Assembly: GCA_964526325.1 (NCBI GenBank)
Contig: CAZGKM010000002.1
Coordinates: 14,725 to 78,724 of the forward strand
Source: an uncultured Gammaproteobacteria bacterium
GTDB lineage: Bacteria > Patescibacteriota > Patescibacteriia > Patescibacteriales > GWC2-42-12
Reading direction: 5' to 3'
DNA length: 64,000 bases
Part shown: one piece after another, positions 10,628 through 39,402 of the stretch
How positions within the stretch are numbered: position 1 is the stretch's first letter
Layout of the letters: every line of letters begins with the position of its first letter
Program-made: the position numbers and the translations under genes
Notes under the pieces: generated by a model
The model's database searches: none
Seen by the model: the letters and a program-made list of their open reading frames with translations, nothing else
Told to the model about the DNA's origin: nothing

Positions 10628-10629
10628 AT

Positions 10630-11478: not shown

Positions 11479-11487
11479 AGTTTTTAT

Positions 11488-12990: not shown

Positions 12991-13083
12991 GTTTTTAGTT
13001 ATATCGTTTAGCCAAATTTTAAGCGTTTTTTATACTTTTTACCACCTCTTTATACGCATCCATATTATTAGGCTATGTAACTT

Positions 13084-13872: not shown

Positions 13873-13883
13873 AAATTATTAAT

Positions 13884-21060: not shown

Positions 21061-21196
21061 ATTATTTATCTACAAATTTATTCTATGGCTAATAACTATA
21101 ATATATAATAGCATTTATCACCTGAAAAATCAATCTAAACAAAAATTAAAGCGGGATAATTTTCCCGCCTTAATGGTTGGTTATTTAACTGTTTTG

Positions 21197-21465: not shown

Positions 21466-21840
21466 TTATTTATTAAGTAATAAGTCTAAAAAATAAGGAA
21501 AAAATATAATTGCGCCGGTGATAATCGCCGCTAAAGACGCCAACAACACTCCGGCCGCCATAATATCTTTAATTTCTTTGACATAAGTATTAATCCTGGG
21601 CTTTAAAACATCGGTGATGCGTTCTACCGCGCTGTTGGCAATCTCCGCCACTAATACCAGACATACTACTAGCGTTAAAATCGCCCATTCAATCCGGTTA
21701 ATGGAAAAATAAAAACCTAAAATTAAAACAGCCAAGCTGGCGAAAGTTTGAATTTTTAAATTTTGTTCTTCGCGAAAAGTTTTAAATAATCCCTTATAAG
21801 CGTAGCCGAAACTTTTAAACAATCTGGTTATTTTTATCAT
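21466..21840 (-). CDS. dgkA: diacylglycerol kinase / undecaprenol kinase family
   Basis: 124 aa with three TM helices. …VVCLVLVAEIANSAVERITD… matches the prokaryotic DAGK motif. It follows ybeY, as is common. Confidence 0.7.
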   Translation of the reverse strand: MIKITRLFKSFGYAYKGLFKTFREEQNLKIQTFASLAVLILGFYFSINRIEWAILTLVVCLVLVAEIANSAVERITDVLKPRINTYVKEIKDIMAAGVLLASLAAIITGAIIFFPYFLDLLLNK

Positions 21841-22363: not shown

Positions 22364-23395
22364 TTAATCTTTTAAATTAAACGATTTAACCATCATCTGA
22401 AAAATATTAAAATATTCCAAAACGTTTCCGCCGCCAGGATTATAAGTTAAGCTGAATATATAATTTTGTTTATTATCGATTAAATATATATTTAAACCAT
22501 CAGGGCTTTTAATGCCCAGCCAATTAGAACCGCTTACCCTATCCGCATCACTAATAGTTAAAACTCCAAGCTGTTCAATGTACCACTGATCAAGCATCTG
22601 CTTATCAACATTAGGCTGGACTATAACCTGCACAAACTGATTATCGTCTGTTTTAAACATTAATGAATCGTCTCCGCCGTTTATGCTGGTTTGCCAGGCG
22701 GAGGGATAAAGCAAGCCATAAGCAAAAGTTTTATTCTCATAAAGAGAAATATTGGAATTAGCGGTTAATTCTCCCGCGCCGGCCGGATTATATAAATTAA
22801 TAAGTTCGGAGCCGTCCAAATAACCATCGCCGTCGGTATCGGGCGTAGTTGAACTGGTGTTTAGAAGAATCTCTTCAATATCTGTTAAGCCGTCATTATC
22901 GCCATCCGTACCAACGCGTAAACTAAGCTCTGCTGTTCCCGGGCCAATCTCGACAGTGGTAGTAGCTATGGTTGTTGTTGCGATTTCATCGTCAAGAAGT
23001 AAAGTTGTTGGCTGGGTACCGGTAGCGGTTGCGGTTATGGTGCTAGGAGCTTCGGATTTTTGTTCAACTTTTTCTTCTATCTGATTACTCTGCTCTGGCT
23101 GATTATTTTCCGTAATTAAAGACGGTTCTTGGGTTATTACTACGGTAGGCTTTCTAAATAAAAAATAATATATTGCCGCTGAAGCTACCAATAAGATTAC
23201 CGCTCCACCGATAATTATTATTAAACCTGTAGTTTTAGCGCTATCCTGTTTAACCGGCTGATTACGAAAAGTGTCCGGCATAACATGAATAGCTATTTTA
23301 TCGTCTTTAATCTGCTCCTTTTGCTCCGGCTCGGTAACTTTTTCTTTGATTTCTTTCAACTCTTCAGGCTTGTTTTTTTTGAAAAAATTAAACAT
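22364..23395 (-). CDS. single-pass membrane protein with extracellular Ca-binding TSP3-like repeats
   Basis: Cytoplasmic N-terminus, TM helix (GLIIIIGGAVILLVASAAIYYFLF), a Thr/Pro-rich linker, then DGDNDGLTDIEE and DTDGDGYLDGSE motifs. Confidence 0.5.
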   Translation of the reverse strand: MFNFFKKNKPEELKEIKEKVTEPEQKEQIKDDKIAIHVMPDTFRNQPVKQDSAKTTGLIIIIGGAVILLVASAAIYYFLFRKPTVVITQEPSLITENNQPEQSNQIEEKVEQKSEAPSTITATATGTQPTTLLLDDEIATTTIATTTVEIGPGTAELSLRVGTDGDNDGLTDIEEILLNTSSTTPDTDGDGYLDGSELINLYNPAGAGELTANSNISLYENKTFAYGLLYPSAWQTSINGGDDSLMFKTDDNQFVQVIVQPNVDKQMLDQWYIEQLGVLTISDADRVSGSNWLGIKSPDGLNIYLIDNKQNYIFSLTYNPGGGNVLEYFNIFQMMVKSFNLKD

Positions 23396-23442: not shown

Positions 23443-24129
23443 TTATTCTTTTATTTCATACAGCTTCCCCTGACCATTAGGATTAAAATTATTTTTAATT
23501 TCTTCTCCATCATTAAAACCGTCTCCGTCAGTATCCGCCTTTAAAGGATCCGTTAAATACACTTTTACTTCTTCGCGGTCAGTCAATCCGTCATGATCGG
23601 TGTCAGGATCGTTTGGATTAATGCCAAGCCCAACCTCTTCTTCGTCGGATAAGCCGTCCTGGTCGCTGTCGACCGGCTGAATAACCTCAGGCTGAATCGG
23701 CTGATTAATAACATTATTATTTTCTACCGGCTCCGGAATTTCCGGAGTAACCGGAACTTCTGGCGCAATTTGATTATTATTAATTTCTTCTTTAATCTCA
23801 TTATTAACCGCCGCTGCATCCCTATTCATCAGCCTATAGCCAAAATAACCGCCGCCAATCAGAATAACCAAACCGACCAATATAAAACCGGCAATCAAGC
23901 CTTTGTTTTTTAGCCAGCTGTCATCTGGCGGTATAACCGTCCCTATTGTCGGTGAAGAATTATTTTCTTTTGGTCTAAGCACTTCGGGCTTAACGATCTT
24001 ATCCACCTCGGAAAAAATGTCTTCGGTTTTAGGCGGCAAAGTCTTCGCCACGAGATCTGGCCGAGGGACGCCGGTCGGTTGAGCGTCGCTCCCCGACATA
24101 GCATTCTGATTATCTAATTCGTCAAACAT
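23443..24129 (-). CDS. single-pass membrane protein with Pro-rich linker and TSP3-like Ca-binding repeats
   Basis: TM helix, a PEVPVTPEIPEP linker, then DSDQDGLSDEEE, DTDHDGLTDREE and DTDGDGFNDGEE repeats. Confidence 0.5.
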   Translation of the reverse strand: MFDELDNQNAMSGSDAQPTGVPRPDLVAKTLPPKTEDIFSEVDKIVKPEVLRPKENNSSPTIGTVIPPDDSWLKNKGLIAGFILVGLVILIGGGYFGYRLMNRDAAAVNNEIKEEINNNQIAPEVPVTPEIPEPVENNNVINQPIQPEVIQPVDSDQDGLSDEEEVGLGINPNDPDTDHDGLTDREEVKVYLTDPLKADTDGDGFNDGEEIKNNFNPNGQGKLYEIKE

Positions 24130-24315: not shown

Positions 24316-27300
24316 TTATAATATTGTTAAATTAATTTCCTCCGACTTATCGCTTTCGTTAGCCTTAAGGTCTAAAGATGAAACCGCGAAATAATATGTA
24401 ACTCCGGCGCTTAAATTATTTATGGTAATTTCGCATTGTCCGGTTGCAGCCGAGCACTTATTTTTTTCAAGATTAACCGATGCGCCTAAAGAACCGCTCT
24501 CGGCGCCGAAATAAATTTTATAAATTGCCGTATCGTCCGTATTGGCTTGCCAAGTAATTACCGCTTTGCCGGCGCCGGCCGTACCGGCTAAATTTTGCGG
24601 AATCTGCGGCGGCCAAACATCCGCCGGAATAAAATTAGTTTCATTGGAATAGCTGCTCTCGGCGCCGCTTTTGTATTTAGCCGTAACCGCGAAATAATAT
24701 TTAACGCCATTGGTTAGATTGCTTATAACAACCGGGTTGGCGATTGTACCAGGATCGGCAACCGAAATCGACTGGCTATAGCCGCCTGATTTAGTGCCGT
24801 AATAAACCAAATATTTATCGAAAATTTGTCCGGTGGGTACAGAAATAGCCTGCCAAGTCAAACCGGCTTTACCGCCTTGCTTAATCGTATCATTAGTCGT
24901 AGTGGCTAAATTTGATGCGATATCCGGCGTATCTTCTCTGAAAAAATAAAACTCTTTTATAATATTCTGCTCGGCTGAAGAACCGCGGATTACGGCCTTG
25001 TCACTTAAAATAGGCGGGAAATCGTCGGCCGTTCCGGCTTCCCCGGTATCACGGCAATAATATAATTCAAAATTAGTGCCCGAACAACCACCGGCTACGG
25101 TAGTGCAATTACTTGACGCATCGCGCCACGGCTCCCAACTGCCATCATCTTTAAACGGCGGCCAAGGATTAGCGCATAAAAAGACATAAACATCCGCAGC
25201 ATTTTCTTTAAATTGACCAACGGTTGATATCTTGCCAACCGCATCCTGCGTAATGGTAGTTTTGACATGAAGCAAGGTATTAGCTTCCTTGACGTTTTGA
25301 GCAACCAGCGTTTGAACAGGATTGTCATCAAGAGCATTTTCTCCATTTATAAACTTAGCTACCGACTTATCGTCTATCAACCAATCCCAGCGCCAGTTAT
25401 AAACATTTTCAATCGGCATGACCGGCTGAGTGGGCGAAAAATATGCCGTAGCGCGGAAAACTTTATCAACATCTCTTATGGTATCATAAGCGGCATTAGC
25501 CGAATCGTCATCGGCCGGATCGTTCACTACGGTATTAAATAAATAACCCGACGGATTAATGGCGACATAATTAACAAAACAAACTCCTTTGTTATCCGCC
25601 GTTTCCGCTTTAGTGGTGAACGACCAAATTTTTCCTTTAAAATTTACGCCGTTAAAAATTTCTTCATCGGTAGTTTTTAAGCCTATGCCCGACTGGCTTA
25701 AAACTCCGTTGTTCATAGCGTCAGAAACATCGGAGTCGCCTTTAATTATAACATAATATTTTCGATTTGCCTCTAAAATTTTCTGCAGCCTAAATTCCAA
25801 TACGGTTGTTTCATTGGCTTGAATATAACCCTTGACCATCCCCGGAACAGCGCAAAAATTTCCTGCCATAGCTTGGGCTTGATTAATAAAAAATTTATTG
25901 AATATCGGTAGGCCGGCCAACCAGTTGGTTAATTTAACAAACAGTCCCGGCTTATAAATCGCGGTTAAATATTTAGTATTGGCCGGGCATTGGTCAGAGC
26001 CATATTCGCCGGCCACGATAATATTACCGTTAAAAGTGTCGGTCCTCATGGGCTGATCAAAAGTAACTTTTACCAGGCTGTTGCGGCAAACATCAACGGC
26101 TCCGGCGGCCGGTACGGTTTCAATCACGTTCGGCCTGGCATGGCAGCAGGTATCGTTGCCGCAACCAACAGAATTAGCATCTCCGCATTCGCTGTCTTGA
26201 CTGCAACCGCAGCAAAGCCCGCGCTTATCGCCGCTGCAAGGCGCTTGGTTGGGTTTGCAAATTAAGGAGGAGTTCAAGCTTGCGCAGCTATCTAGCGCCG
26301 CGAAAGGATCGCAACAGCAAGTACCGCAATTTGAAGGCACCGGACCGGTACCATCCTCGTTTAAACAAGCAAAGCCGACGCATTTATTGATATCGCAACT
26401 TTGCGTTGTCATGGCGCTCTCAAAGCAAGTATTGCCGAATTGCGCGGCAGGCTTACATTTATTATCACATTCGGCTAAAGTAGCGTAACTCGGCGAACTG
26501 GAGGAAGCGACGGCTATATTGGAGCAGCTGCCGGCGCCGCATTCATAATAAGCGCAATAATTATAGGCCGGAAGGCCGGTGGCATATGGCGCTTCCCCGC
26601 CGCGGCAAGCATTTTTATTTTTAGCATCAACACAGCAAGTACCCACGCCTAAACCGCTGCATGTAGCCGCGCTGCTAATCTGAGCGCAGTCTTGGCAAAC
26701 GCCGCTCGGATTAGCGCTGTCAATCAAGCAAAATTTACCGCTGGTACCGCTACAATTGCATGCTTCGTTATGTTCTATTTGAGTCGTGCCAACGCCGGCG
26801 CAGCCGGAACAACGGCCGTAAGTATTGGTATTGGCGGTTATATCACTGCCACATTTACCTTCGCATTTTAAAGGCGAGCAGCAATCTTCGCCGTCATGGC
26901 CGATGCGGCAGCAGCATTCGCAGCTGGCACTGTCGCTTTTTGTGCATTTATTATCACTGCCGCAAATTGAACCGATAGGACAAAGGCTTTGTTCAACCGC
27001 GCAGATACCGACAATCGCGCCGGACGTTTCCTTTATGCATTTAAAGCCGGTATCGCAAGCCGAACAGGTTGTATTATTTTCCATGCAGCGTCCGCCGAAA
27101 ATACTCGTCCACCCGCTGGGACAAGAGGTGCTAATCGTTATAATCCATCTATTTTCTCCGCCATAAGCCAGACAACTGGCCGTGGAAGTTGCGGCAATAT
27201 CGCTAAGCGTATAATTAACTACTTTAGGCAGACCGCAAGTTTGATTCTTTTTAGCGCATTTATCTACATTTAATTTATATTCGCACAAATCGGTTTTACA

Positions 27301-29661
27301 AACATTGAAATTATTACAGCTATAATCACAGGTGCCGGTTTCACTAACTTCCCCGCCGCCGTAAGTTGAGCATTTGCCGGGCGAGTTTGGACAAAAATAA
27401 CTGCTTGAGCATTGGCTTAAGCCATAATTTGAGCAGGCCTGCCCATCGGAACATTCGGTTTTTCCGTCACTGTCCAAATCTTTACAGCCGCCGGTGGAAC
27501 AGCATTGCAGATCGCCGTCGCATTGATCCGGTTTATTGACGGGACAGCTATCACATTGGCCGGTAAGATGGTTGCATTGATTGGGAGCGCAACAGTTGAA
27601 GGTAATGGCACTGCCCTGCTGGACATTGGGTATATCGCATTTTTCTTGATTAACCGAACATTCACCTGACTTAGTGGAAAATGTCCAGCCAAAACCGCAG
27701 CCTCCTGGCGAACCCTGAGCGCAAGTCCCGGTTGCGCGGCAGATGCCTGACCAATAAGTGCCGCCGCCGCAACATTCTTCTCCCAACTCGCATTCGGAGC
27801 TGGAAGAACATTTGCCTACGCGAAAAGGCAAAGGATTGCTGATATATCCTTGGCTATCAATTATTCTGAACGGACCGCTGATTGAATCCACAGGCACATT
27901 ATTATCAACTTTTTGATCACCCCAGCTTCGTATTGAAGCTTCCTTATTATTAAAATATTGGGCGCGGCCGCTTCCCTGATTAACGCCGAATCTTTCGCCA
28001 TTTGCGGTTACCGGCCAGCCAACCGGACCGTTATTCGGATTTAACAGACAAAGGCCCGGAGTAGGCGTCTTGTTATTGATCGTAAAGTTGGCCGGCAAGC
28101 TGGTTTTATCATAAGAGTTGGTAACTTCAACTTTATAATCGCCCAGATTATTTACCTTTGGCACTTTAACAACAATATAAGTATCATGCCACCAATTATT
28201 GCGGCAGGCCTCGGGAAAATCAATATCGGCGTTGATTTTTGTATTCGGATCAGCCGGCCAATAAAATTTTACCGAACTTTTTTGCGCGTTGTAAATTTTA
28301 AAATTACGGCCGTAAATAGTTATATACTGGCCGGGCGGACCGTTATCCGGCTCGATATAGTCAATTGCCGGATTAGTATCAATATTATTAATCACCGTAA
28401 AAACAAGATCATTGGAATTGACATTATTCGTTTGAACAAACACCGAATTCCTGCCGTCTTGAATATTGGGTACGGTAGCGTCAACAGAAGTATTGGTCCA
28501 ATTGGCAATATTATTAGCTTCAATGGCGTTAGCGCTATTGCCGAATAAAACCGAATGAGGAGAAAGATTAAAGGCCGTGCCCTGGACATTAAAGTCATCG
28601 TCCAAACCGCCTCTGGACGGGTCAATCTGGCAGACTCCCGGACGCTTAATATTGTTTACCAAAAAATCATTAATCCGCGCGCCGCGGTTATTATCGGTCG
28701 TATCGTAATAATTTTTACTGTCGATTACTTTAATCGGACCGCTAACGGCTCCGTTAGGCACAGCGACTATAATCTGATTATCCTGCCAAAAACTAGTGCA
28801 GAGCGGATTAACTTCGTTCGGGAAAGTCGCAATTTTATCGTCGCTTGTATTATTGGGGTCGCCCATAAAAACTACTTGGCCGGTGGTTGTGCCGAAATAT
28901 CTGCCGCCTATGGTAATAAAATTTCCCACAGCGCCATTAGGCGTACTTGAAGCATCGATCGGGCTTACCCAGGCGATTAAAGGCGTTTTAATACAAGTAC
29001 AATTATCGTTAGACGAACAAACTAAATTATCCGCGCAATCAACCGCTTGGCAGCCGGCCAGATCGGTATCGGCGTCGCAACTTTGGCCGTCTGACGGCTG
29101 AGTTGATTTTTGGCAGGTACAGGTAGAACTAACGCAATCTAGACCGGACGCGCAGTCGCCGTTCGCGCATTGAGTATCTTGTAAATCAACCAAGCAAGGA
29201 TCGCCTTCTCCGGGCAAACCTCCGCCGCCCGGAGGTACGGTGCCTCCGCCGCCCGGAGGTACGGTGCCTCCGCCGCCGGTAGCATCTAGCAAACTGTTTA
29301 AAACAAAGCTGGCGATAGCGAATGAAGCCAAACAAATCAATAAGCCGATAACAGCGCCGATTAACACTTTTTTGGCTTTTTCAACTTTATCCGCCTCGCC
29401 TTCAGCCGTCATCCAAAGCCAGCCGGCATACATTATTAAGCCCACGGCGATAATTCCTAAAAAGCCCAATATTATTCTTATTATTCTGGCCGCGATAATT
29501 CTCGGATCGCTGGCCGCGCTTAAGCCCGTGCCTTCAGCGTAGTTTAAGCCAATATCAGGACCGGTAGCGGCCAAAACAAAATTAGCCACAGCAAAAACGG
29601 CTATTGCTAAAAAAATTAATAATAATAATTTCTTGATTACTTTATTCATGAGTGAAAACAA
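24316..29661 (-). CDS. giant (1781 aa) cysteine-rich surface protein with VirB2/TrbC-like N-terminal double-TM anchor and C-terminal FN3 domains
   Basis: Signal-like leader, the conserved ATGPDIGLNYAEGTGLS segment, two TM helices flanking a charged loop, and a (GGGGTVPP)x2 linker. A cysteine-rich region of about 1000 aa with EGF/CxxC-like spacing follows, then Ig-like segments and two C-terminal FN3-like domains (…VKYYFAVTAKY… and …VTYYFAVSSLD…). Confidence 0.7.
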   Translation of the reverse strand: MFSLMNKVIKKLLLLIFLAIAVFAVANFVLAATGPDIGLNYAEGTGLSAASDPRIIAARIIRIILGFLGIIAVGLIMYAGWLWMTAEGEADKVEKAKKVLIGAVIGLLICLASFAIASFVLNSLLDATGGGGTVPPGGGGTVPPGGGGLPGEGDPCLVDLQDTQCANGDCASGLDCVSSTCTCQKSTQPSDGQSCDADTDLAGCQAVDCADNLVCSSNDNCTCIKTPLIAWVSPIDASSTPNGAVGNFITIGGRYFGTTTGQVVFMGDPNNTSDDKIATFPNEVNPLCTSFWQDNQIIVAVPNGAVSGPIKVIDSKNYYDTTDNNRGARINDFLVNNIKRPGVCQIDPSRGGLDDDFNVQGTAFNLSPHSVLFGNSANAIEANNIANWTNTSVDATVPNIQDGRNSVFVQTNNVNSNDLVFTVINNIDTNPAIDYIEPDNGPPGQYITIYGRNFKIYNAQKSSVKFYWPADPNTKINADIDFPEACRNNWWHDTYIVVKVPKVNNLGDYKVEVTNSYDKTSLPANFTINNKTPTPGLCLLNPNNGPVGWPVTANGERFGVNQGSGRAQYFNNKEASIRSWGDQKVDNNVPVDSISGPFRIIDSQGYISNPLPFRVGKCSSSSECELGEECCGGGTYWSGICRATGTCAQGSPGGCGFGWTFSTKSGECSVNQEKCDIPNVQQGSAITFNCCAPNQCNHLTGQCDSCPVNKPDQCDGDLQCCSTGGCKDLDSDGKTECSDGQACSNYGLSQCSSSYFCPNSPGKCSTYGGGEVSETGTCDYSCNNFNVCKTDLCEYKLNVDKCAKKNQTCGLPKVVNYTLSDIAATSTASCLAYGGENRWIITISTSCPSGWTSIFGGRCMENNTTCSACDTGFKCIKETSGAIVGICAVEQSLCPIGSICGSDNKCTKSDSASCECCCRIGHDGEDCCSPLKCEGKCGSDITANTNTYGRCSGCAGVGTTQIEHNEACNCSGTSGKFCLIDSANPSGVCQDCAQISSAATCSGLGVGTCCVDAKNKNACRGGEAPYATGLPAYNYCAYYECGAGSCSNIAVASSSSPSYATLAECDNKCKPAAQFGNTCFESAMTTQSCDINKCVGFACLNEDGTGPVPSNCGTCCCDPFAALDSCASLNSSLICKPNQAPCSGDKRGLCCGCSQDSECGDANSVGCGNDTCCHARPNVIETVPAAGAVDVCRNSLVKVTFDQPMRTDTFNGNIIVAGEYGSDQCPANTKYLTAIYKPGLFVKLTNWLAGLPIFNKFFINQAQAMAGNFCAVPGMVKGYIQANETTVLEFRLQKILEANRKYYVIIKGDSDVSDAMNNGVLSQSGIGLKTTDEEIFNGVNFKGKIWSFTTKAETADNKGVCFVNYVAINPSGYLFNTVVNDPADDDSANAAYDTIRDVDKVFRATAYFSPTQPVMPIENVYNWRWDWLIDDKSVAKFINGENALDDNPVQTLVAQNVKEANTLLHVKTTITQDAVGKISTVGQFKENAADVYVFLCANPWPPFKDDGSWEPWRDASSNCTTVAGGCSGTNFELYYCRDTGEAGTADDFPPILSDKAVIRGSSAEQNIIKEFYFFREDTPDIASNLATTTNDTIKQGGKAGLTWQAISVPTGQIFDKYLVYYGTKSGGYSQSISVADPGTIANPVVISNLTNGVKYYFAVTAKYKSGAESSYSNETNFIPADVWPPQIPQNLAGTAGAGKAVITWQANTDDTAIYKIYFGAESGSLGASVNLEKNKCSAATGQCEITINNLSAGVTYYFAVSSLDLKANESDKSEEINLTIL
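29223..29270. repeat. 24-nt perfect tandem duplication (ccgccgcccggaggtacggtgcct x2), in-frame in the giant gene, encoding the Gly/Pro linker
   Basis: The direct tandem repeat is seen in the sequence. It translates (minus strand) to GGGGTVPPGGGGTVPP. Confidence 0.8.
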
Positions 29662-29690
29662 ATTTTAATTTTTAATTTTTAAATAATTTT

Positions 29691-31457
29691 TTACCAACAA
29701 CTGCTATTACTGCTCGGCGTGCCATCGCAACAAGAAGGATTGCCGTTTACGCCAAGGCCGGAGCAAGGCGTATAACAATTCTGATAAATGTCTTTAATGC
29801 CGGAATTCAACTCAACCGAGTAATTGGTGTCTTCATTAAACTGATCATGATTAACGTAAGCGGTCGTTTTACTGTCGCTAAAATTATCGCTTTTGGTTAT
29901 CCAGTAGTTATAAAGAGTGGCCGCGCTTTTTAAATTTATGCTTGAGCTATTTAACGATGAGCTCATTAAAAATTTATTAAAAGTAGCTTCCGGTACGGCC
30001 GATAAATCCACTCCGCTGATGCCGACCGACGGATTTATCTGATCTACCTTTGGCGGTATAATATCAATCGTATTGTTAGTATTGAACAACCAATAATAAT
30101 CATCGCCTTGGCCATCGTGCGTTTGGCTGTTGGCGTTATAGGGCACTAAATTGCTTTGCGACTCCGGCCCCTGAGACGTGCCATCGCTATTGCCGTCAAA
30201 CGAATTATCCGCCATATCAACTACGCCGTCGTAAGGGAAAACGGCCGAAGCAATATTAACGTCAAAAGTCGCGGCATTAATAAAAGCTTTAATTTGCTTA
30301 TTGCCGGGCAAGCAATAAATCGTCTGACCGCAAGAATTAATGCCGCAAGCGTCAAAAGTTAAATATTCCACGGTTTTATACTGGTTGGAAATATAAAAAA
30401 TACCCTCGATTATGACGCTATCGGTATTATTTAAAACCTTGATATTATCAAATCCGTCACCATCTTTAAAAAATCCACTGGCCGAAATCGGGTCAACCGC
30501 CTCGGAAAAATTTATTTGCACGACGACGTTTCTCGGTTCGGTAGTGCTGGGCTGTGGAATTATGCTTTCTACTTTCGGCGGCGTGGTATCAATAAAAGTT
30601 CCGACTTCAAACATCCAGTCATAAGCTATTTCGCCTAACACGGCGCCAAAAGCCAAATCGCCATTGGCTTTTTTTATGTTCTTGCTTAAGCCGACCGTGT
30701 ACCAAATTTTTTCCGTGGGCGAGCCTAAATATTGCGTCGGCTTAAAAACAAAAGTTTTATTATCGTCGGTTTTAAACGCGCTGACATCAAAAGTCACCGC
30801 GCCGGCTACGCCGTCTACGGTTTTATAAATTTTAATATTTTGCTGGTTGATCTTGCCATCGGTTATAATAGTGGCCGGATCGATAGCCTCTTTAAAAGTA
30901 ACCGCGATTTTGGTGTTTCTCGGAACGTCTTTTTGGTTGCGTGCCGGATAATGGGAATTGATTATGCCTGAACCTAAAGCTGAAATTCCGCCGCCGGCGC
31001 CTCCGCCCGGAGGTCCGGCAACGTTGCCGTCAACTATGCCCATTAATTTATTAAGAATAAAGCTGACTATCGCGAAAGCCGCTAAAATAATTAATAGACC
31101 GATAACCGCGTTGGTTAACGTCTTTTTGGCCTGCGCGATTTTTTCTTCATTGCCTTCGCTTGTCATCCAGAGCCAGCCGGCATACATTATTAAACTCACC
31201 GCTATAATGCCAAGAAAACCGATAATTATTCTGATAATTTTAGCGATAGTTACTCTTATATCCTGGGAATTGCTTAAGCCCGTGCCTTCAGCGTAGTTTA
31301 AGCCAATTTCAGGTCCGGTCGCGGCCAAAACAAAATTTGACAACAAAAAAATAGCCAATAGCATAAATAAACATACGCCGGCTATTTTATAAAGCCTATT
31401 AAATTTTCCGTTTTTTAGCATGGTAAAAAATAAGTTTAAAAACTTTGACTTTTGCAC
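29691..31457 (-). CDS. 588-aa surface protein sharing the VirB2/TrbC-like N-terminal module, with Ig-like domains and a Cys-rich C-terminus
   Basis: The N-terminal roughly 130 aa are about 70% identical to the giant protein (FVLAATGPEIGLNYAEGTGLS…IIRIIIGFLGIIAVSLIMYAGWLWMTSEG…). A GPPGGGAGGG linker follows, then TPPKV- and IPPKVDQ-type Ig-like segments and a C-terminal CYTPCSGLGVNGNPSCCDG. Confidence 0.65.
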   Translation of the reverse strand: MQKSKFLNLFFTMLKNGKFNRLYKIAGVCLFMLLAIFLLSNFVLAATGPEIGLNYAEGTGLSNSQDIRVTIAKIIRIIIGFLGIIAVSLIMYAGWLWMTSEGNEEKIAQAKKTLTNAVIGLLIILAAFAIVSFILNKLMGIVDGNVAGPPGGGAGGGISALGSGIINSHYPARNQKDVPRNTKIAVTFKEAIDPATIITDGKINQQNIKIYKTVDGVAGAVTFDVSAFKTDDNKTFVFKPTQYLGSPTEKIWYTVGLSKNIKKANGDLAFGAVLGEIAYDWMFEVGTFIDTTPPKVESIIPQPSTTEPRNVVVQINFSEAVDPISASGFFKDGDGFDNIKVLNNTDSVIIEGIFYISNQYKTVEYLTFDACGINSCGQTIYCLPGNKQIKAFINAATFDVNIASAVFPYDGVVDMADNSFDGNSDGTSQGPESQSNLVPYNANSQTHDGQGDDYYWLFNTNNTIDIIPPKVDQINPSVGISGVDLSAVPEATFNKFLMSSSLNSSSINLKSAATLYNYWITKSDNFSDSKTTAYVNHDQFNEDTNYSVELNSGIKDIYQNCYTPCSGLGVNGNPSCCDGTPSSNSSCW

Positions 31458-31507
31458 AATCTTGTAATAATATTATAACATAAACAAAATAACAAAAGCA
31501 AATAATC

Positions 31508-33271: not shown

Positions 33272-33880
33272 TTATTTATTTAAATCGGCTAAAGCTATTT
33301 CAAGTGGCGTAGGGCTAACGCCAAAATATTTTGCTATCGGTCCGGCCATATATTCATTAAGCGTCTTAGGATCTATTTTTGAAATATCAATGTTATTATC
33401 AAACAAAAATTTATTTAATACTTTAATTTTTATTTCTCTTAATTTATCCCTGGGTATCAATAAATAATTGGCAAAATTATTTGCTTGCACTTCTATAAAA
33501 TGGTGTTGATCGCCGGTTAATTCGTCATGAAATTTAGTAATATCGTCAGAATCTTTGATTTTAAACCGTTCAAAAAGATTTTTATGCAAAATTAAATGGC
33601 CCACTTCGTGAGCATAGGAAAATCTTAATCTGTTGTTTCCAGCTCTATACGACTCATCATCCACTACCATGTGTTGCCAATCAGATGTTATAAATGCATC
33701 AAAACCTTTTAATTTAAGTAGCTCGGGCTTTGTTACGATATTAATTTTCAACTTTACATCAATGATTGTCTCTATATCTACAGGAATTGTATTATTCCAA
33801 TATTTTTCTCTGAATATTTCTGCCGCTTTATAAATATCAGCCTTGGACAAATAAGGCACCATGAAATTTTGAAAATTCAT
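33272..33880 (-). CDS. ImmA/IrrE-family zinc metallopeptidase
   Basis: HEXXH motif in YAHEVGHLILH with the DUF955/ImmA layout. It overlaps or abuts the XRE gene upstream. Confidence 0.7.
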   Translation of the reverse strand: MNFQNFMVPYLSKADIYKAAEIFREKYWNNTIPVDIETIIDVKLKINIVTKPELLKLKGFDAFITSDWQHMVVDDESYRAGNNRLRFSYAHEVGHLILHKNLFERFKIKDSDDITKFHDELTGDQHHFIEVQANNFANYLLIPRDKLREIKIKVLNKFLFDNNIDISKIDPKTLNEYMAGPIAKYFGVSPTPLEIALADLNK

Positions 33881-33884
33881 TTTT

Positions 33885-34265
33885 TTATTTGTTATTTTTT
33901 ATTAACTTGAATAAATCTTCAATTTCTTCCTTTGTCGGCTTTTCATTTCTGACAGTTCTAAAAAATGCCGGCATTAATTTTAATGCTTCCGCGTCCGAAA
34001 GAATGTCTTGCGGAATTATCCCCTGAGCAATTTGTGCTTCATCTATAAATTCACGCATTTCTTCACTCCCGTTTTTTAGCCCTAATATTTTCGCCCATCT
34101 CGCCAATATTTTTTCATCCGCCGGCGGCGGAATTAAGCCTCTTTCAACTTTACTCCAGTTGCTTGGATCATATCCAGTTTCTTTACAAACATTCCTTAAG
34201 CTTAATTCTTGCTTAATTCTTAAATCTTTAAGCATTTCGCCGAATTTTTGTAGATTTTTTTTCAT
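33885..34265 (-). CDS. XRE-family helix-turn-helix transcriptional regulator
   Basis: N-terminal HTH (…FGEMLKDLRIKQELSLRNVCKETGYDPSNWSKVERG…). Confidence 0.7.
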   Translation of the reverse strand: MKKNLQKFGEMLKDLRIKQELSLRNVCKETGYDPSNWSKVERGLIPPPADEKILARWAKILGLKNGSEEMREFIDEAQIAQGIIPQDILSDAEALKLMPAFFRTVRNEKPTKEEIEDLFKLIKNNK

Positions 34266-34301
34266 TGATTCACCACCTTTCTAGTTTTTTATAAATTAAA
34301 T

Positions 34302-34327
34302 AAGTGTGGTATTATTTTACCACACTT
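34302..34327. promoter_or_regulatory. perfect 10-bp inverted repeat operator (aagtgtggta-ttattt-taccacactt) in the divergent promoter region
   Basis: Seen directly in the sequence. It lies between the XRE gene start (34265) and the TTGACA -35-like box at 34349. A strong RBS aaggagga sits at 34409-34416, before the ATG at 34421. Confidence 0.6.
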
Positions 34328-34420
34328 AAAATATTTGTAAAGTTATTATTGACATTTATATTGTATTGATATAACATCAATAATTAAACAAAATTTTGTT
34401 CATTTCATAAGGAGGAAATT

Positions 34421-34918
34421 ATGGCATCGTTAGAAAACGTGAAAGGCAGAATAGCGGAAATGGCGGTTGAAGCAATCTTTATGGCGTCAGGACATACTAT
34501 ATACCAAACCGGCATAGAGTATCGTATGCCATCGCTTTTTCATTGCGAAGTTAAACCGAAAAAAAATTTCTATGACAAGACAACGGATAAGCTGTGTGAC
34601 ATTCCTGACTTTGCTTTACCTGGTTTCAACGGAGAATTAGAATATATTGAGGTAAAATTTAGGCAATATGGGAACTTCTACAAAGAAGATAAACCCCTGC
34701 TTGAAAAACTCGCCAAATTCTGGGAACCTACTATTATTATAGTTTCATTAAAGAACGGCCAAGCTCATTTTACGAAAGTTGAACCACCCTACATAAAAGA
34801 TGGCAGTTGTGCACCGCTAAACGGAATATCAATTTTTGAAGTTGTTCGTTGGGCGCTTGATCCTTTATTACTTCCGTATTGTACAAAATTTGTAGAGATG
34901 TTGAATGAAATAAAATAG
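34421..34918 (+). CDS. hypothetical protein with Hjc-like / restriction-endonuclease-like PD-(D/E)xK motif arrangement
   Basis: N-terminal GRIAEMAVEAIFMASGH (G-x-x-x-E helix), then …DIPDFAL… and ELEYIEVKFRQ (a D…E-x-K arrangement). It has a strong SD and sits downstream of the operator palindrome. Confidence 0.4.
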   Translation: MASLENVKGRIAEMAVEAIFMASGHTIYQTGIEYRMPSLFHCEVKPKKNFYDKTTDKLCDIPDFALPGFNGELEYIEVKFRQYGNFYKEDKPLLEKLAKFWEPTIIIVSLKNGQAHFTKVEPPYIKDGSCAPLNGISIFEVVRWALDPLLLPYCTKFVEMLNEIK

Positions 34919-34934
34919 CAAACAGTTGCTACTC

Positions 34935-34970
34935 GCGTCTTGAATTAAATTTCGAGACGCTTTTTATTTT
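34935..34970 (+). terminator. rho-independent terminator
   Basis: gcgtcttgaa-ttaaat-ttcgagacgc stem followed by tttttatttt. Confidence 0.55.
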
Positions 34971-35514
34971 ATTTAAATTAGAATATTTCTTATAAAATTA
35001 TTTAATATTAGCTAATATTGTAACTTATAATTAATATATTTATCCGCAACTATTTGACATATTTTTTTCAATAAAATCAATTATTTTAGCTAATTTTAGA
35101 AAAAAACAGCAATTTTTAATTAAAAATAGAAAAAAACAGCATGCTATAATATTAATAGAGTACTTTCTCGTTCCTCGGAAACGAGCTAATTAACCCGATC
35201 TGTAGTCTGAGGCGTAGATCGAAAAAATATATACGTATGGGGAAAGAGTCAAAAACTTTTCTTATCGGTCGCAAAGCTGACAAAGGAACTTTAGTCAGTG
35301 TTGAATACGCTCGAGCTCATAAAAAAAGTTGTATTGTAGAAAGAATGCCAAAAAAAGGATTCGGCGACACAAAATAATTATTCAACTATCAAACGGTTAG
35401 AAGAAAGGCTTGGTACCAAACGAGCGACTCACCTCGAGAAAATATTAAAGTTAAGTAATTCCAGATTTGAGAGGGTTAAAAGATTGCTTGTGTTATAGCT
35501 CCTGACTCTACCAT

Positions 35515-35548
35515 AAAGCCCGCCAATAAAAGGCGGGCTTTAAAATTT
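35515..35548. terminator. bidirectional stem-loop terminator
   Basis: aaagcccgcc-aataaaa-ggcgggcttt followed by T-rich sequence. It lies directly after the stop of the minus-strand J-domain gene and at the end of an ORF-poor plus-strand segment. Confidence 0.55.
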
Positions 35549-36168
35549 TAGAATCTTCTTTTAAACTTTCTTTCTATTTCTTCCTGCATTTTTCTAATTC
35601 TTTCGCTCGCATCATTTAAAGTTTTATTAACTCTTACATTTTCACTGCTGTGATTTAATTTTCTTATTAAATCTTCCTTCATTTTATCTATGCGCGCCTG
35701 AGCTTCATCAATAGTTTTTTGAGTATTTACATAACCGCTACCGCCCCTCACTCGCTCATGAATTTCTCTTTGGATGGCTTCCATTTTTTCTTTGTGTTTC
35801 CTCTCGGTTTCCCTTAAACTTTCTTCGGCTTTTCTTAGTTCTTCTTTCGCTTTTTGAGCTTTTTCCACGGCCTTAAAATAATCTTGAAAAAAATCATCAA
35901 ATTTTTTTTCTGGTTTCGCTTTTTCAAGCTTTAAATTATAATTTTTTCTTTTATTAGGATCGCTCAATACTTCATAAGCTCCGCTTATCTCCCTAAATTC
36001 GTCTTCCCTGCCTTTATTTTCCGGAATATCCGGGTGGGTTTCTTTAACGCGTGTTCTGTAGGCTAATTTAATTTCGTCGTCCGTAGCGTCCGGCAAAACG
36101 CCAAGAATCTCATAATAATTTTTTGGCTGTCTTACTTCTCTATTTGATTCAAAATTTTCATGCCCCAT
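35548..36168 (-). CDS. J-domain (DnaJ-like) protein with long coiled-coil tail
   Basis: YYEILGV…AYR…HPD…E…F…I…AYEVLSD is the J-domain HPD signature. The rest is a charged coiled coil. It is 16 nt downstream of the Type IIG gene on the same strand. Confidence 0.7.
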   Translation of the reverse strand: MGHENFESNREVRQPKNYYEILGVLPDATDDEIKLAYRTRVKETHPDIPENKGREDEFREISGAYEVLSDPNKRKNYNLKLEKAKPEKKFDDFFQDYFKAVEKAQKAKEELRKAEESLRETERKHKEKMEAIQREIHERVRGGSGYVNTQKTIDEAQARIDKMKEDLIRKLNHSSENVRVNKTLNDASERIRKMQEEIERKFKRRF

Positions 36169-36183
36169 ATTGTTATTTAAAAT

Positions 36184-38730: not shown

Positions 38731-38835
38731 GTTTTTACTTTATCATTTCTCCGCTAATATTTCAACTTTACAAAACTTACCTTGTAAGATATTATTAATA
38801 TATGAAAGCTAACAATCATTGAGAGGAGGCAGGCT

Positions 38836-39402
38836 ATGGGGAAAGTGATTGATTTAAGCACCTTAAAAAATCGGCGGACAAGTTCGGAAACAGAGAATAT
38901 TCAAGGAGGCGACTTAACCGAACTGCTTAAAACGGCGACAACTTTGAGGCAAGAAGCGGTAGAAATTAAAGAAACCATTGTGGTCATGAATTTTGGTAAA
39001 TTTAAACGCCTACTGGAGGCCAGGCTTTCGGCCATTATTCTGAAAAGAAAAAATATCGGAGTTGATTTTTTTCTATGCAGCAATTATATCGCAGCCTTGC
39101 TGTCCGACCTCGGCAAAACCCCTCCCGAAAGCTGGTACGCGGTTGATTACTTTATGAAAGCCGCAACCGAAGACAAACCGACCGCCTTAAGAGAAGGAGC
39201 GAACATCTGTTTTTTAATTTGTGCCGTTTTCCCGGAAAAAGGCAAGGTCAGATGCATGAAACTGACAGATTACGAAACTCTTGGCCAAGGGTTATACTAC
39301 AATTATTACGGTCAAACCGGAGCGATTGTCGCCTATTTCATGAGTAAGCAATTTCAGCCGATGGTTGAAATAACTAAGGAATGCCTTCATGAACTAAAAT
39401 AA
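38836..39402 (+). CDS. hypothetical protein
   Basis: 188-aa ORF with a plausible SD (gagaggagg) and a terminator immediately downstream. I recognise no family. Confidence 0.4.
   Translation: MGKVIDLSTLKNRRTSSETENIQGGDLTELLKTATTLRQEAVEIKETIVVMNFGKFKRLLEARLSAIILKRKNIGVDFFLCSNYIAALLSDLGKTPPESWYAVDYFMKAATEDKPTALREGANICFLICAVFPEKGKVRCMKLTDYETLGQGLYYNYYGQTGAIVAYFMSKQFQPMVEITKECLHELK

What the first reader, a model, noticed from the sequence alone, without database searches (positions are those of the whole stretch)
24316..31457. Giant cysteine-rich surface protein and a paralog, both anchored by a VirB2/TrbC-like N-terminal double-TM module
The 1781-aa and 588-aa proteins share a roughly 130-aa N-terminus: a leader, the conserved ATGP(D/E)IGLNYAEGTGLS segment, then TM helix, charged loop, TM helix. 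This is the topology of type IV secretion pilins (VirB2/TrbC). The module is followed by Gly/Pro linkers and large extracellular regions.

The giant protein then has:
- about 1000 aa of densely spaced Cys, probably more than 150 residues, with EGF/CxxC-like spacing;
- Ig-like segments;
- two C-terminal FN3 domains.

Fusing a pilin-like membrane hairpin to a huge disulfide-rich ectodomain is the kind of cell-surface apparatus proposed for episymbiotic attachment in reduced-genome bacteria. A DsbA-family oxidoreductase is encoded in the same window at 61835-62512, consistent with extracytoplasmic disulfide formation.
Basis: partly seen in the sequence, partly recalled or inferred. Interest (0 to 1): 0.78.

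Follow-up and report, generated by a model that had tools for sequence, protein, structure and literature searches.

The report
Pilin-anchored giant surface protein pair
Two neighbouring genes of an uncultivated ultra-small bacterium each fuse a secretion-pilus subunit to a large outward-facing protein, one of them 1,781 residues with 108 cysteines, and this pair is conserved in over a hundred related species, making them candidates for the unknown host-contact molecules of these bacteria.

Summary
Two intact minus-strand ORFs, A (24316-29661, 1781 aa) and B (29691-31457, 588 aa), share a 126-aa N-terminus at 62% identity. It consists of a signal peptide, a conserved mature N-segment and a confidently predicted two-helix membrane hairpin, followed by Gly/Pro linkers and ectodomains.

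- A has 108 Cys, not more than 150. The dense block is about 560 aa, not 1000.
- EGF-like identity is not supported. The block matches no solved fold, but its Cys positions are strongly conserved.

The module belongs to the curated Patescibacteria T4SS_pilin family (PF18895). Profile-profile comparison links it specifically to genuine VirB2/TrbC (66-79% probability; negative controls at most 4%).

New findings:
- B, A and two Ca-binding TSP3 membrane proteins form a conserved chromosomal cassette in at least 114 species-level genomes (class ABY1, Falkowbacteria-like). It never lies next to T4SS genes.
- The hairpin is the most conserved part of A.
- The A and B modules evolve in concert within each genome.

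Most likely this is a pilin-module-anchored adhesin complex. Whether the proteins enter a pilus is open. No paper found describes such fusions, so this is a new variant of a known kind.

The parts
29691..31457 (-). Gene B: 588-aa pilin-module protein (module aa 1-143, Gly/Pro linker, three Big_5 Ig-like stretches, Cys-containing C-terminal tail)
   Evidence: ORF. Pfam PF18895 32.3 bits (above the 26.6 threshold) and Big_5 E = 1.9e-22. NCBIfam NF045849 40.9 bits. B-like orthologues lie upstream of A-like genes in 60 loci.
31029..31457 (-). B pilin module: leader, conserved mature N-segment, TM1, loop, TM2
   Evidence: BLASTP against A, hydropathy, short-pilin HMM E = 5e-42.
24316..29661 (-). 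Gene A: 1781-aa giant pilin-module protein
   Evidence: ORF. Identical NCBI protein P0070 and more than 230 homologues of 1436-2718 aa with the same architecture.
29569..29661 (-). A signal peptide (aa 1-31): n-region charge +3, hydrophobic core, cleavage motif V-L-A|A
   Evidence: Sequence and hydropathy. The Ala at -1 (A31) is nearly invariant in the family alignment. Predicted as a helix, aa 3-33. Cleavage itself is inferred.
29506..29568 (-). A mature N-terminal segment ATGPDIGLNYAEGTGLSAASDPR (aa 32-52), predicted extracellular and disordered
   Evidence: Its DNA is near-identical to B's, including an exact 36-nt run.
29287..29505 (-). A pilin hairpin (aa 53-125): TM1, short charged loop, TM2
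   Evidence: AlphaFold2 hairpin, pLDDT 87-94. Most conserved region of the protein: mean pairwise identity 0.75, 0.59 and 0.67. hhalign to VirB2/TrbC 66-79%.
29206..29286 (-). A Gly/Pro linker (aa 126-152), including a perfect 24-nt tandem duplication (29219-29266) that encodes GGGGTVPP twice
   Evidence: Sequence; direct repeat family D3.
28987..29205 (-). Two duplicated 6-Cys modules (aa 153-225; pattern C-x8-C-x4-C-x5-C-x4/5-C-x-C)
   Evidence: Cys spacing; Cys conserved in homologues. No Pfam match.
27817..28986 (-). Array of IPT/TIG Ig-like domains (aa 226-615; three Pfam stretches, about four domains, one conserved Cys each)
   Evidence: PF01833 E = 1.8e-16. PDB profile hits to the E-set domain of cyclodextrin glycosyltransferases.
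26137..27816 (-). Large Cys-rich block (aa 616-1175; 82 Cys), with an indel-prone sub-region at aa ~703-769
25612..26136 (-). Big_5 Ig-like domain (aa 1176-1350), homologous to B's membrane-proximal Big_5 domain
   Evidence: PF13205. hhalign between the A and B families: 90% probability, E = 1.5e-6.
24892..25611 (-). Conserved region X of unknown fold (aa 1351-1590), with invariant W/C/Y positions and the motif NFELYYCRD
   Evidence: Invariant columns. No Pfam or PDB sequence match.
24319..24891 (-). Two C-terminal fibronectin type III domains (aa 1591-1781)
   Evidence: PF00041 E = 2.2e-11, two stretches. PDB profile hits to titin and other FN3 pairs.
23443..24129 (-). Cassette gene 3 (TSP3-1): 228-aa single-pass membrane protein with a Pro/Glu-rich spacer and Ca-binding TSP3 repeats
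   Evidence: PF18884 E = 1.2e-15. TM helix at aa 72-101. Found directly downstream of A-like genes in nearly all loci.
22364..23395 (-). Cassette gene 4 (TSP3-2): 343-aa single-pass membrane protein with a Thr-rich spacer, DxDxDG repeats and a C-terminal domain
   Evidence: TM helix at aa 51-81 and sequence. Orthologues carry PF18884. Conserved position.
31467..31495 (-). Promoter-like site directly upstream of B (TTGTTA-17-TATTAT); suggestive only
   Evidence: Site counts in the region are not clearly above shuffled controls.
21145..21174 (-). Terminator-like hairpin (12-bp stem plus T-run) after the downstream ybeY-dgkA genes; a possible end of the transcription unit, suggestive only

Best explanation
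A and B are paralogous cell-surface proteins of a Falkowbacteria-like (GTDB class ABY1) Patescibacterium. In each, a VirB2-like type IV secretion pilin module serves as the membrane-embedded foot of a large extracellular adhesin-like stalk.

SHOWN
- Each protein starts with a signal peptide, a conserved mature N-segment and a two-helix hairpin homologous to the stand-alone PF18895 pilins.
- A Gly/Pro linker follows, then Ig-like domains (TIG, Big_5, FN3).
- A additionally carries a position-conserved, 82-Cys block of unknown fold.
- B, A and two single-pass TSP3 (Ca-binding repeat) proteins form a vertically inherited four-gene cassette.

INFERRED
- Sec-dependent insertion and signal-peptidase cleavage after V-L-A leave the protein N-out/C-out. 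This is the VirB2 topology, and it places the whole ectodomain outside the cell.
- The Cys-rich block is disulfide-stabilised, with help from a membrane-anchored DsbA-like oxidoreductase.
- The multi-domain ectodomain reaches through the wall to bind a host or particle surface. Some family members carry lectin-type domains.
- The hairpin is more than a passive anchor. It keeps pilin-type, sequence-specific helix packing, pairing A with B and possibly with the genome's short pilins.

I commit to a membrane-resident adhesin complex as the default state. Extraction into a pilus is treated as a separate, less certain step.
For: Module identity
- PF18895: B 32.3 bits, above the threshold.
- An HMM built only from short pilins hits A at 1.4e-40, B at 5e-42, and 120 of 122 giant homologues at their N-termini.
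- All 36 aligned modules hit PF18895.
- hhalign to genuine TrbC/VirB2: 79% with alignment A1 and 66% with a giant-only profile spanning both helices. Controls (DAGK, YbeY, ATP synthase c) give 0.15-4%.

Topology
- Hydropathy and charge distribution.
- AlphaFold2 hairpin.
- The -1 Ala of the cleavage site is nearly invariant.

Ectodomain
- Pfam domains; PDB profile hits to FN3 and TIG only.
- Cys conservation.
- Lectin-type domains (Laminin_G_3, pentaxin) occur in some family members.

Cassette
- RelA(-) | B -> A -> TSP3-1 -> TSP3-2 -> YbeY -> DAGK in L001-L004, L007 and L008-L087. 114 species-level genomes matched, and 60 loci show both modules.

Hairpin specificity
- Mean pairwise identity is 0.75 (TM1), 0.59 (loop) and 0.67 (TM2), against 0.35-0.47 for every ectodomain region.
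- A and B modules of the same genome are 60% identical, against 46-48% across genomes.
- Patchy near-identical DNA tracts between the two modules.

Other
- DsbA-like protein with CPYC and a TM anchor.
- Cassette-bearing genomes also encode VirB4/TrsD and separate short VirB2-like genes.
Against: - No experiment exists, and no cultivated representative of class ABY1 is named among the cocultured classes in PMC12102498. Localisation, cleavage, disulfides and binding are all inferred.
- The cassette is never adjacent to virB4 or to pilin arrays in 80 loci or in the window.
- A is below the Pfam threshold for PF18895. Both proteins are below the TrbC threshold.
- A plain HMM of genuine VirB2 does not separate B (E = 0.34) from DAGK (E = 0.007).
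- Foldseek finds no solved pilin for the hairpin model.
- The high hairpin conservation and within-genome similarity could result from gene conversion alone.
- No recognised binding domain is present in this particular A protein.
- Three loci (L057, L061, L075) appear to lack a B-like gene.
Confidence: 0.55

Rival explanations
1. True minor or tip pilins. After membrane insertion, the VirB4-type T4SS extracts the A and B hairpins and builds them into a VirB2-like pilus made mainly of the genome's short pilins. Incorporation is at low stoichiometry or at the tip, so the giant ectodomains are displayed on the filament as its adhesins.
For: - The module is homologous to short PF18895 pilins and shares their motifs, including the mature N-segment IGLNYA found in array pilins.
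- The hairpin is under stronger constraint than any ectodomain region.
- The A and B modules co-evolve.
- The same genomes carry VirB4/TrsD and short VirB2-like genes.
- The published survey found no adhesin for the Patescibacteria T4SS.
- From my own knowledge: both termini of VirB2-type pilins lie on the pilus exterior in solved T- and F-pilus structures, so a C-terminal fusion would point outward.
Against: - The cassette is never linked to virB4 or to pilin arrays in 80 loci.
- A ~1650-aa appendage is sterically incompatible with dense helical packing, so only rare or terminal incorporation is possible.
- No VirB2-family precedent was found in the literature.
- A C-terminal fusion excludes the head-to-tail cyclisation seen in some VirB2/TrbC pilins.
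- Pilus formation has not been demonstrated for any ABY1 organism.
Confidence: 0.3
2. Structural envelope scaffold. The cassette builds a wall-spanning or S-layer-like structural complex that depends on calcium through the TSP3 repeats and is stiffened by disulfides. It is needed for envelope integrity or division rather than for adhesion. The pilin-derived hairpin is just an inherited anchor, kept uniform between A and B by gene conversion.
For: - Single-copy, vertically inherited core position next to ybeY, dgkA, ftsA and ftsZ in all lineages examined.
- Big_5 is the Ig-like domain of the S-layer protein SbsA; UniRef names the B orthologue 'SbsA Ig-like domain-containing protein'.
- Two Ca-binding TSP3 partners.
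- DNA tracts consistent with gene conversion.
- No recognised ligand-binding domain in this A protein.
Against: - Passive anchors normally conserve hydrophobicity rather than sequence, yet TM1 is 75% identical across orthologues that share 35-47% elsewhere.
- Ectodomain length and content vary widely between species (1660-3067 aa, with lectin-type insertions), which is more typical of adhesins than of lattice proteins.
- Nothing is known about its abundance.
Confidence: 0.13
3. Secreted or surface enzyme, as suggested by the GenBank name 'Beta-1,3-glucanase' on orthologue KKS35353.1.
For: - The GenBank name.
- One PDB hit of the family profile is a beta-1,3-glucanase chain (9vsf_A).
Against: - That PDB hit covers only profile positions 1570-1648, which is the FN3 domain and not a catalytic domain.
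- No glycoside-hydrolase or other catalytic Pfam family is found in A, even at E <= 1-10.
- NCBI names for other orthologues are 'IPT/TIG domain-containing' or 'hypothetical'.
Confidence: 0.02

Closest known systems
Stand-alone VirB2-like pilins of Patescibacteria (Pfam PF18895 T4SS_pilin; NCBIfam NF045849 'Mbov_0395 family pilin-like conjugal transfer protein'), including the essential pilin array in the T4SS cluster of Ca. Southlakia epibionticum (PMC10633639, PMC12102498, PMC12857230)
   Same: - Homologous leader, cleavage-site Ala, mature N-segment and two-helix hairpin.
- Same phylum.
- The same genomes encode VirB4/TrsD.
   Different: - Those pilins are 100-160 aa with nothing after TM2. 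They lie in tandem arrays and are often near virB4.
- A and B carry 445-aa and ~1650-aa C-terminal ectodomains.
- A and B sit in a separate conserved cassette never linked to virB4 or to arrays.
- They were not listed as VirB2 in the published survey for genome GCA_000997945.1.
Classical TrbC/VirB2 conjugative pilins (Pfam PF04956; Agrobacterium VirB2, RP4 TrbC)
   Same: - Long leader, N-out/C-out helical hairpin, similar module size.
- In-register profile-profile match at 66-79% probability.
   Different: - Below the PF04956 threshold.
- Not encoded between virB1 and virB3 (compare).
- Monoderm host.
- The C-terminal fusion precludes cyclisation.
- No structural hit to solved pilins.
Large minor or tip pilins of type IV pili and type II secretion pseudopili, such as CofB, TcpB and GspK (my own knowledge, not tested here)
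   Same: Same design principle: a pilin-type membrane or assembly module carries a bulky extra domain that can only sit at the filament tip and mediates initiation or adhesion.
   Different: - Unrelated fold and machinery: type IV pilins have a single N-terminal helix and are processed by prepilin peptidase.
- This is an analogy only.
'Extended VirB6' T4SS subunits with large hydrophilic domains (reviewed in PMC12857230)
   Same: A core T4SS membrane component enlarged by big hydrophilic domains of unknown function.
   Different: - A different subunit family: polytopic VirB6, not the pilin.
- No equivalent 'extended VirB2' is described in that review.
Surface adhesins of Gram-positive conjugation systems, such as PrgB (cited in PMC12102498)
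   Same: Large multi-domain surface proteins thought to supply cell-cell contact for a monoderm T4SS.
   Different: - PrgB-type adhesins are wall-anchored by LPXTG and encoded in the T4SS locus.
- A ends in ...EEINLTIL without a sorting signal, is membrane-anchored by a pilin hairpin, and is unlinked to the T4SS.
- The survey detected no PrgB homologues in Patescibacteria.

Membership tests
Pfam PF18895 T4SS_pilin (Patescibacteria VirB2-like pilins) | HMM match at or above the curated gathering score (26.6 bits) | tested here: met
   B scores 32.3 bits. A scores 17.9 bits as the whole protein and 24.5 bits as the isolated module, which is below the threshold. An HMM built only from 95-170-aa family members scores A at E = 1.4e-40 and 131 bits. 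So the feature is met for B by the curated test, and for A by a family-specific test only.
Pfam PF18895 T4SS_pilin (Patescibacteria VirB2-like pilins) | Signal peptide, then a two-helix membrane hairpin with a short charged loop | tested here: met
   Hydropathy. AlphaFold2: H3-33, H53-85, H90-127, pLDDT 87-94 in the hairpin. The -1 Ala is nearly invariant.
Pfam PF18895 T4SS_pilin (Patescibacteria VirB2-like pilins) | Small stand-alone protein (about 100-160 aa) ending shortly after TM2 | tested here: not met
   A is 1781 aa and B is 588 aa. Stand-alone relatives have a median length of 136 aa.
Pfam PF18895 T4SS_pilin (Patescibacteria VirB2-like pilins) | Genomic association with virB4/T4SS genes or with tandem pilin arrays | tested here: not met
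   No T4SS gene and no further pilin module in the 64-kb window or within +/-10 kb in 80 orthologous loci. VirB4 is present elsewhere in the same genomes.
Pfam PF04956 TrbC/VirB2 pilin | HMM match at or above the gathering score (27.9 bits) | tested here: not met
   B scores 18.1 bits, E = 0.003. A has no hit. 3 of 36 aligned modules give weak hits.
Pfam PF04956 TrbC/VirB2 pilin | Detectable remote homology to genuine VirB2/TrbC, above negative controls | tested here: met
   hhalign of A1 against a 6-sequence profile of annotated TrbC/VirB2 genes lying between virB1 and virB3: 79.3% probability, E = 1.6e-5. A giant-only module profile gives 65.8%, E = 5.7e-5, over 68 columns. Controls give 0.15-4%. 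The strength is moderate and the VirB2 profile is thin.
Pfam PF04956 TrbC/VirB2 pilin | Structural similarity to solved conjugative pilins | tested here: inconclusive
   Foldseek against the PDB returns only generic helical hairpins (best E = 0.07) and no pilin. The PDB sequence-profile search returns only spurious hits. A two-helix hairpin is too simple to discriminate.
Pfam PF04956 TrbC/VirB2 pilin | Polymerises into an extracellular pilus via a VirB4-type machine | not testable with these tools
   Needs microscopy or biochemistry on an uncultivated organism.
NCBIfam NF045849 (Mbov_0395 family pilin-like conjugal transfer protein) | Score at or above the curated cut-off (40 bits) | tested here: inconclusive
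   B scores 40.9 bits, just above the cut-off. A scores 28.9 bits, below it. The model is an 'equivalog' for ~80-aa proteins, and the fused proteins are clearly not equivalogs.
Ig-like / FN3 surface-protein domains (PF01833 TIG, PF13205 Big_5, PF00041 fn3) | HMM matches above the gathering scores | tested here: met
   In A: TIG 47.1-60.3 bits, Big_5 37.7 bits, fn3 40.3-44.2 bits. In B: Big_5 80.4 bits. PDB profile hits to FN3 pairs and E-set domains.
DsbA-family thiol-disulfide oxidoreductase (ORF 61835-62512) | Thioredoxin/DSBA HMM above threshold, CxxC active site, extracytoplasmic targeting | tested here: met
   PF13462 107.9 bits and PF01323 74.7 bits. CPYC at residue 85 and an N-terminal TM helix at 11-40. 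A functional link to A was not tested.

The most novel reading that the evidence does not exclude
A and B would be the first known 'extended VirB2' pilins. In this reading they are genuine minor or tip subunits of the Patescibacteria T4SS-type pilus, and their fused giant ectodomains are the long-sought adhesins that let the essential T4SS of these epibionts find and hold host cells. The two modules would be kept matched within each genome because they must co-assemble at the start of the filament.
Probability: 0.3. Interest if true: 0.85.

Novelty: new variant of a known kind. Interest (0 to 1): 0.62.

Why it matters
The Patescibacteria T4SS and its VirB2-like pilins are essential for epibiotic growth in the one system tested (PMC10633639). 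What the apparatus touches, and how, is unknown. A phylum-wide survey reported no adhesins (PMC12102498).

Here a pilin module is physically fused to large, variable, Ig-like and Cys-rich ectodomains, which carry lectin domains in some species. The fusion occurs in two adjacent genes conserved across at least 114 species. This gives concrete candidate contact molecules and a testable link between pilin biology and host recognition.

It would also be the first case of a VirB2-family pilin carrying a large C-terminal domain. That extends to T4SS pili the 'pilin plus tip domain' principle known from type IV pili.

On the practical side:
- Surveys that count PF18895 or VirB2 hits should separate short pilins from fused forms.
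- Plain VirB2 HMMs give false positives on small membrane proteins such as DAGK.

Tried and rejected
1. Sequence-profile search of the module against PDB chains: only spurious hits to designed 'Pizza' proteins.
2. Foldseek of the AlphaFold2 module model against the PDB: generic hairpins and no pilin. Uninformative.
4. Self-BLAST for periodicity in the Cys-rich block: none found.
5. Plain hmmsearch with a genuine VirB2/TrbC profile: its best window hit was DAGK, so I rejected it as a discriminating test and replaced it with controlled hhalign comparisons.
6. Hypothesis that the six 'VirB2' rows of Table S3 for GCA_000997945.1 (genes 281-302) were the cassette genes plus false positives: rejected. 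The cassette proteins are KKS35352-KKS35357, not KKS33699-KKS33720.
7. Identifying the window's own assembly accession: P0070 is not in the gene-position index and carries no accession.
8. Looking for T4SS genes, further pilins, or a DsbB/VKOR partner in the window: none.
9. tRNA and Rfam scans of the window: nothing.
10. Horizontal transfer as the cause of gene A's higher GC (0.42-0.50 against ~0.35): rejected. Synteny is conserved, and the composition follows from Cys-, Gly- and Ala-rich coding.
11. The GenBank name 'Beta-1,3-glucanase': rejected as an FN3-driven misannotation.

Full report
**1. What is in the sequence**

The two reported ORFs exist as described. Gene A is 24316-29661 on the minus strand: 1781 aa with a TTG start. 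An identical NCBI protein, P0070, begins four codons later at MNKVIKK. Gene B is 29691-31457 on the minus strand: 588 aa with a GTG start, and the true start is probably the ATG at residue 13. Only 29 nt separate them.

Their N-termini are 62% identical over 126 residues (E = 2e-41), including ATGP(D/E)IGLNYAEGTGLS. Beyond that the ectodomains are dissimilar by BLAST.

Hydropathy shows a leader and two hydrophobic helices in each protein. AlphaFold2 on a 36-sequence alignment predicts a signal helix (aa 3-33), a disordered stretch (34-52) and a tight helical hairpin (53-85 and 90-127) with pLDDT 87-94. The leader has a positively charged n-region and ends V-L-A|A. The -1 Ala is nearly invariant in the family.

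After cleavage, the expected topology is N-out, loop-in, C-out. This places everything after TM2 outside the cell. Cleavage and topology are inferred, not shown.

**2.

- A contains 108 Cys, not more than 150.
- The Cys lie in two duplicated 6-Cys modules (aa 156-223) and one dense block (aa 618-1173, 82 Cys). About four TIG domains separate these and hold only four Cys.
- Pfam finds TIG, Big_5 and two fn3 domains in A, and three Big_5 stretches in B. It finds no EGF-type or other Cys-rich family, even at E <= 1-10.
- Self-BLAST finds no periodicity in the large block.
- The block is still not noise. In 40 homologues (36-82% identical), 84 of 108 Cys are conserved in at least 80% of sequences. 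Cys columns average 0.90 conservation against 0.42 for the other columns.
- A family profile searched against PDB sequences hits only FN3 pairs and the E-set domain of cyclodextrin glycosyltransferases. The Cys-rich block and a conserved ~240-aa region X (aa ~1351-1590) therefore remain of unknown fold.
- The DsbA-like ORF at 61835-62512 is real: a DSBA/thioredoxin fold, a CPYC motif and an N-terminal TM anchor. It lies 30 kb away, and no DsbB/VKOR partner is in the window.

**3. Identity of the N-terminal module**

B passes the curated threshold of Pfam PF18895 'T4SS_pilin' (32.3 against 26.6 bits). It narrowly passes NCBIfam NF045849, 'Mbov_0395 family pilin-like conjugal transfer protein'. 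A falls below both thresholds.

A search with the module returns 69 proteins. Nearly all are PF18895 members of 100-160 aa from Patescibacteria, and some are named 'pilin'.

An HMM built only from those short proteins scores A at 1.4e-40 and B at 5e-42. It also hits 120 of 122 long homologues at their N-termini; the two misses are truncated fragments. Membership of this pilin family at the module level is therefore secure.

The deeper link to classical VirB2/TrbC is weaker:
- PF04956 scores only 18.1 bits for B, against a threshold of 27.9.
- PDB sequence and fold searches are uninformative.
- A plain HMM of genuine VirB2/TrbC scores DAGK better than B.

I therefore ran controlled profile-profile comparisons. 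The genuine profile used six annotated pilins, each encoded between virB1 and virB3 on conjugative plasmids.
- The module alignment matches it at 79% probability (E = 1.6e-5).
- A profile built only from the giants' own modules matches at 66% (E = 5.7e-5), across both helices.
- Controls against DAGK, YbeY and ATP synthase c profiles or sequences give 0.15-4%.

The relationship is specific but of moderate strength.

**4. Distribution and context**

Full-length A has more than 230 homologues of 1436-2718 aa with the same architecture, all from Patescibacteria. Their source names are uninformative: 'IPT/TIG domain-containing', 'Ig-like domain-containing' or 'hypothetical'.

A scan of species-representative genomes found relatives in 114 genomes. 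The named ones are Ca. Falkowbacteria and the Parcubacteria/Patescibacteria groups. The T4SS survey's Table S1 places four of them in GTDB class ABY1.

Across the 80 fetched loci and five further contexts, the gene order is nearly invariant: RelA/SpoT (divergent), then B-like (pilin module + Big_5, 525-1056 aa), A-like (pilin module + giant, 1660-3067 aa), TSP3-1, TSP3-2, YbeY and DAGK. FtsA and FtsZ follow in several loci.
- Sixty loci show both modules.
- Most of the rest are cut by contig ends.
- Three loci (L057, L061, L075) seem to lack a B-like gene.

TSP3-1 and TSP3-2 are single-pass membrane proteins. Each has an acidic, Pro- or Thr-rich spacer and thrombospondin-type-3 Ca-binding repeats.

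The cassette is thus a vertically inherited core operon, not a mobile T4SS island. No T4SS gene or extra pilin module lies in the window or within 10 kb in any locus.

The same genomes do have a T4SS. Four of the five cassette-bearing genomes listed in Table S1 are VirB4-positive. GCA_000997945.1, the source of L084, has TrsD and VirB4 plus six separate short VirB2-like genes. Its cassette proteins (KKS35352.1 and KKS35353.1) are not among the survey's VirB2 rows.

The closest stand-alone pilins sit in tandem arrays of 7-9 genes beside glycosyltransferases.

**5. Clues to mechanism**

- *Hairpin conservation.* Among 40 orthologues the hairpin is the most conserved part of A. Mean pairwise identity is 0.75 (TM1), 0.59 (loop) and 0.67 (TM2), against 0.35-0.47 for every ectodomain region. 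This is unusual for a passive anchor.
- *Concerted evolution.* In 60 genomes the A and B modules of the same genome are 60% identical. A-A and B-B orthologues are 47-48% identical, and A-B across genomes 46%. In the window, the two modules' DNA has a 68-nt stretch with three mismatches, including an exact 36-nt run across all synonymous sites, and a second exact 23-nt run. The background identity is ~73%. This fits local gene conversion, selection for matched hairpins, or both.
- *Origin of A.* A's Big_5 domain after the Cys block aligns with B's membrane-proximal Big_5 domain at 90% probability. A's ~1050-aa middle has no counterpart in B. So A looks like a B-type paralogue that gained a large insertion.
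- *Variable, lectin-bearing ectodomains.* Ectodomain length and content vary between species. Some members carry Laminin_G_3 or pentaxin lectin-type domains, as is typical of adhesins.
- *Family size.* The module family is very large: 78,664 representatives at E <= 0.001. A few long members have ectodomains unrelated to A or B, so the design is used more than once.

**6. Best explanation and rivals**

I commit to a membrane-resident, pilin-module-anchored adhesin complex (confidence 0.55). A and B are exported, cleaved by signal peptidase, and held by a VirB2-like hairpin that keeps sequence-specific packing, pairing A with B and perhaps with short pilins. Their Ig-like and disulfide-rich stalks project through the wall for contact with host or particle surfaces, together with the two Ca-binding TSP3 proteins.

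Architecture, homology, conservation and synteny are shown. Cleavage, topology, disulfides, partners and binding are inferred.

Rivals:
- True minor or tip pilins built into a T4SS-type pilus (0.30). This is attractive because the survey found no adhesin and the hairpin is so constrained. Against it are the lack of any genomic linkage and the steric problem.
- A structural, S-layer-like envelope scaffold with a merely inherited anchor (0.13).
- An enzyme, as one GenBank name suggests (0.02). This is contradicted by the domain content.

**7. Comparison with the known, and novelty**

Stand-alone VirB2-like pilins of Patescibacteria are known and are essential in Ca. Southlakia (PMC10633639, PMC12102498, PMC12857230).

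I found no paper describing VirB2-family pilins fused to large ectodomains, or describing this cassette. The caveat is that the library covers only open-access papers and preprints.

Databases already hold these proteins with automatic domain labels, so the sequences are not new. The recognition of an 'extended VirB2' pair in a conserved cassette appears to be new.

I classify it as a new variant of a known kind. It passes the module-level test for PF18895. It fails that family's size and context features, and it fails the PF04956 threshold.

Interest is 0.62: surprising to T4SS and CPR specialists and a concrete handle on an open question, but entirely in silico and in an uncultivated lineage.

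Noticed in passing
Proteins P0190-P0270 from the exhaustive search, e.g. P0196 (1775 aa, 17 modules), P0220 (1147 aa, 11), P0190 (552 aa, 6): Many proteins consist of 2-17 tandem copies of the pilin hairpin module in one continuous polypeptide ('poly-pilins'). The sequences of P0190 and P0196 show uninterrupted repeats. They could be polyprotein precursors, multi-hairpin membrane proteins, or fused gene calls.
   Followed up: partly
window 33272-39402: Relatives have YqeY directly next to RelA/SpoT. This window instead has a ~6-kb insertion between them. It carries an HTH_31 regulator plus an IrrE/M78 peptidase pair, a DnaJ-domain protein, an 848-aa Eco57I/MmeI-type restriction-modification enzyme and two unannotated ORFs. 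It looks like a small defence or mobile islet (compared with 30, 31, 34, 50).
   Followed up: partly
window 6129-15997: Five ORFs each end in a PEP-utilizers mobile domain (PF00391): 6129-7670, 9575-10627, 11488-12990, 13884-14963 and 14960-15997. They sit around a separate PPDK_N ATP-binding ORF (8579-9517), a His_Phos_1 ORF and a methyltransferase. This is an unusual cluster of split or paralogous phosphotransfer modules.
   Followed up: no
window 29219-29266: The Gly/Pro linker of A (GGGGTVPPGGGGTVPP) is encoded by a perfect 24-nt tandem duplication, which is a likely slippage-prone length variable.
   Followed up: no
window 21466-21840 (DAGK) and L084 16536-16910: A plain HMM of genuine VirB2/TrbC pilins scores the diacylglycerol kinase (a small multi-TM protein) better than the real pilin modules: E = 0.007 against 0.34. 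VirB2 calls based on such HMMs with lenient thresholds may therefore include false positives.
   Followed up: partly
Loci L009, L013, L019, L022, L026 and many others: Dozens of 'binchicken' TPA metagenome-assembled genomes that carry this Patescibacteria-specific cassette are titled 'uncultured Gammaproteobacteria bacterium'. This is evidently a placeholder or wrong taxon label in the records.
   Followed up: no
L084 6809-14104 (KKS35353.1): The A orthologue in GW2011_GWC2_42_12 is named 'Beta-1,3-glucanase' in GenBank. The only similarity to such an enzyme is through the FN3 domain, so this is probably a misannotation.
   Followed up: yes
L060 (A-like split into 936 aa + 1072 aa ORFs); L003 15215-19651: One orthologous locus has the giant gene split into two ORFs, by a frameshift, a pseudogene or an assembly error. 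Another has an extra 1478-aa He_PIG/NHL-repeat protein inserted between the A-like gene and the TSP3 genes.
   Followed up: no
window 56076-57038 (+): A further 320-aa ORF has a weak TSP3_bac repeat match (E = 2.6e-4, below threshold). It lies outside the cassette and may be another Ca-binding surface protein.
   Followed up: no
L005 10001-14113 and L006 9460-12978: The stand-alone pilins closest to the A/B module lie in arrays of 7-9 tandem PF18895 genes, directly beside a conserved block of glycosyltransferases (GT2, GT4, PMT_2, LPG_synthase_TM). This hints at pilin glycosylation or a shared envelope locus.
   Followed up: no
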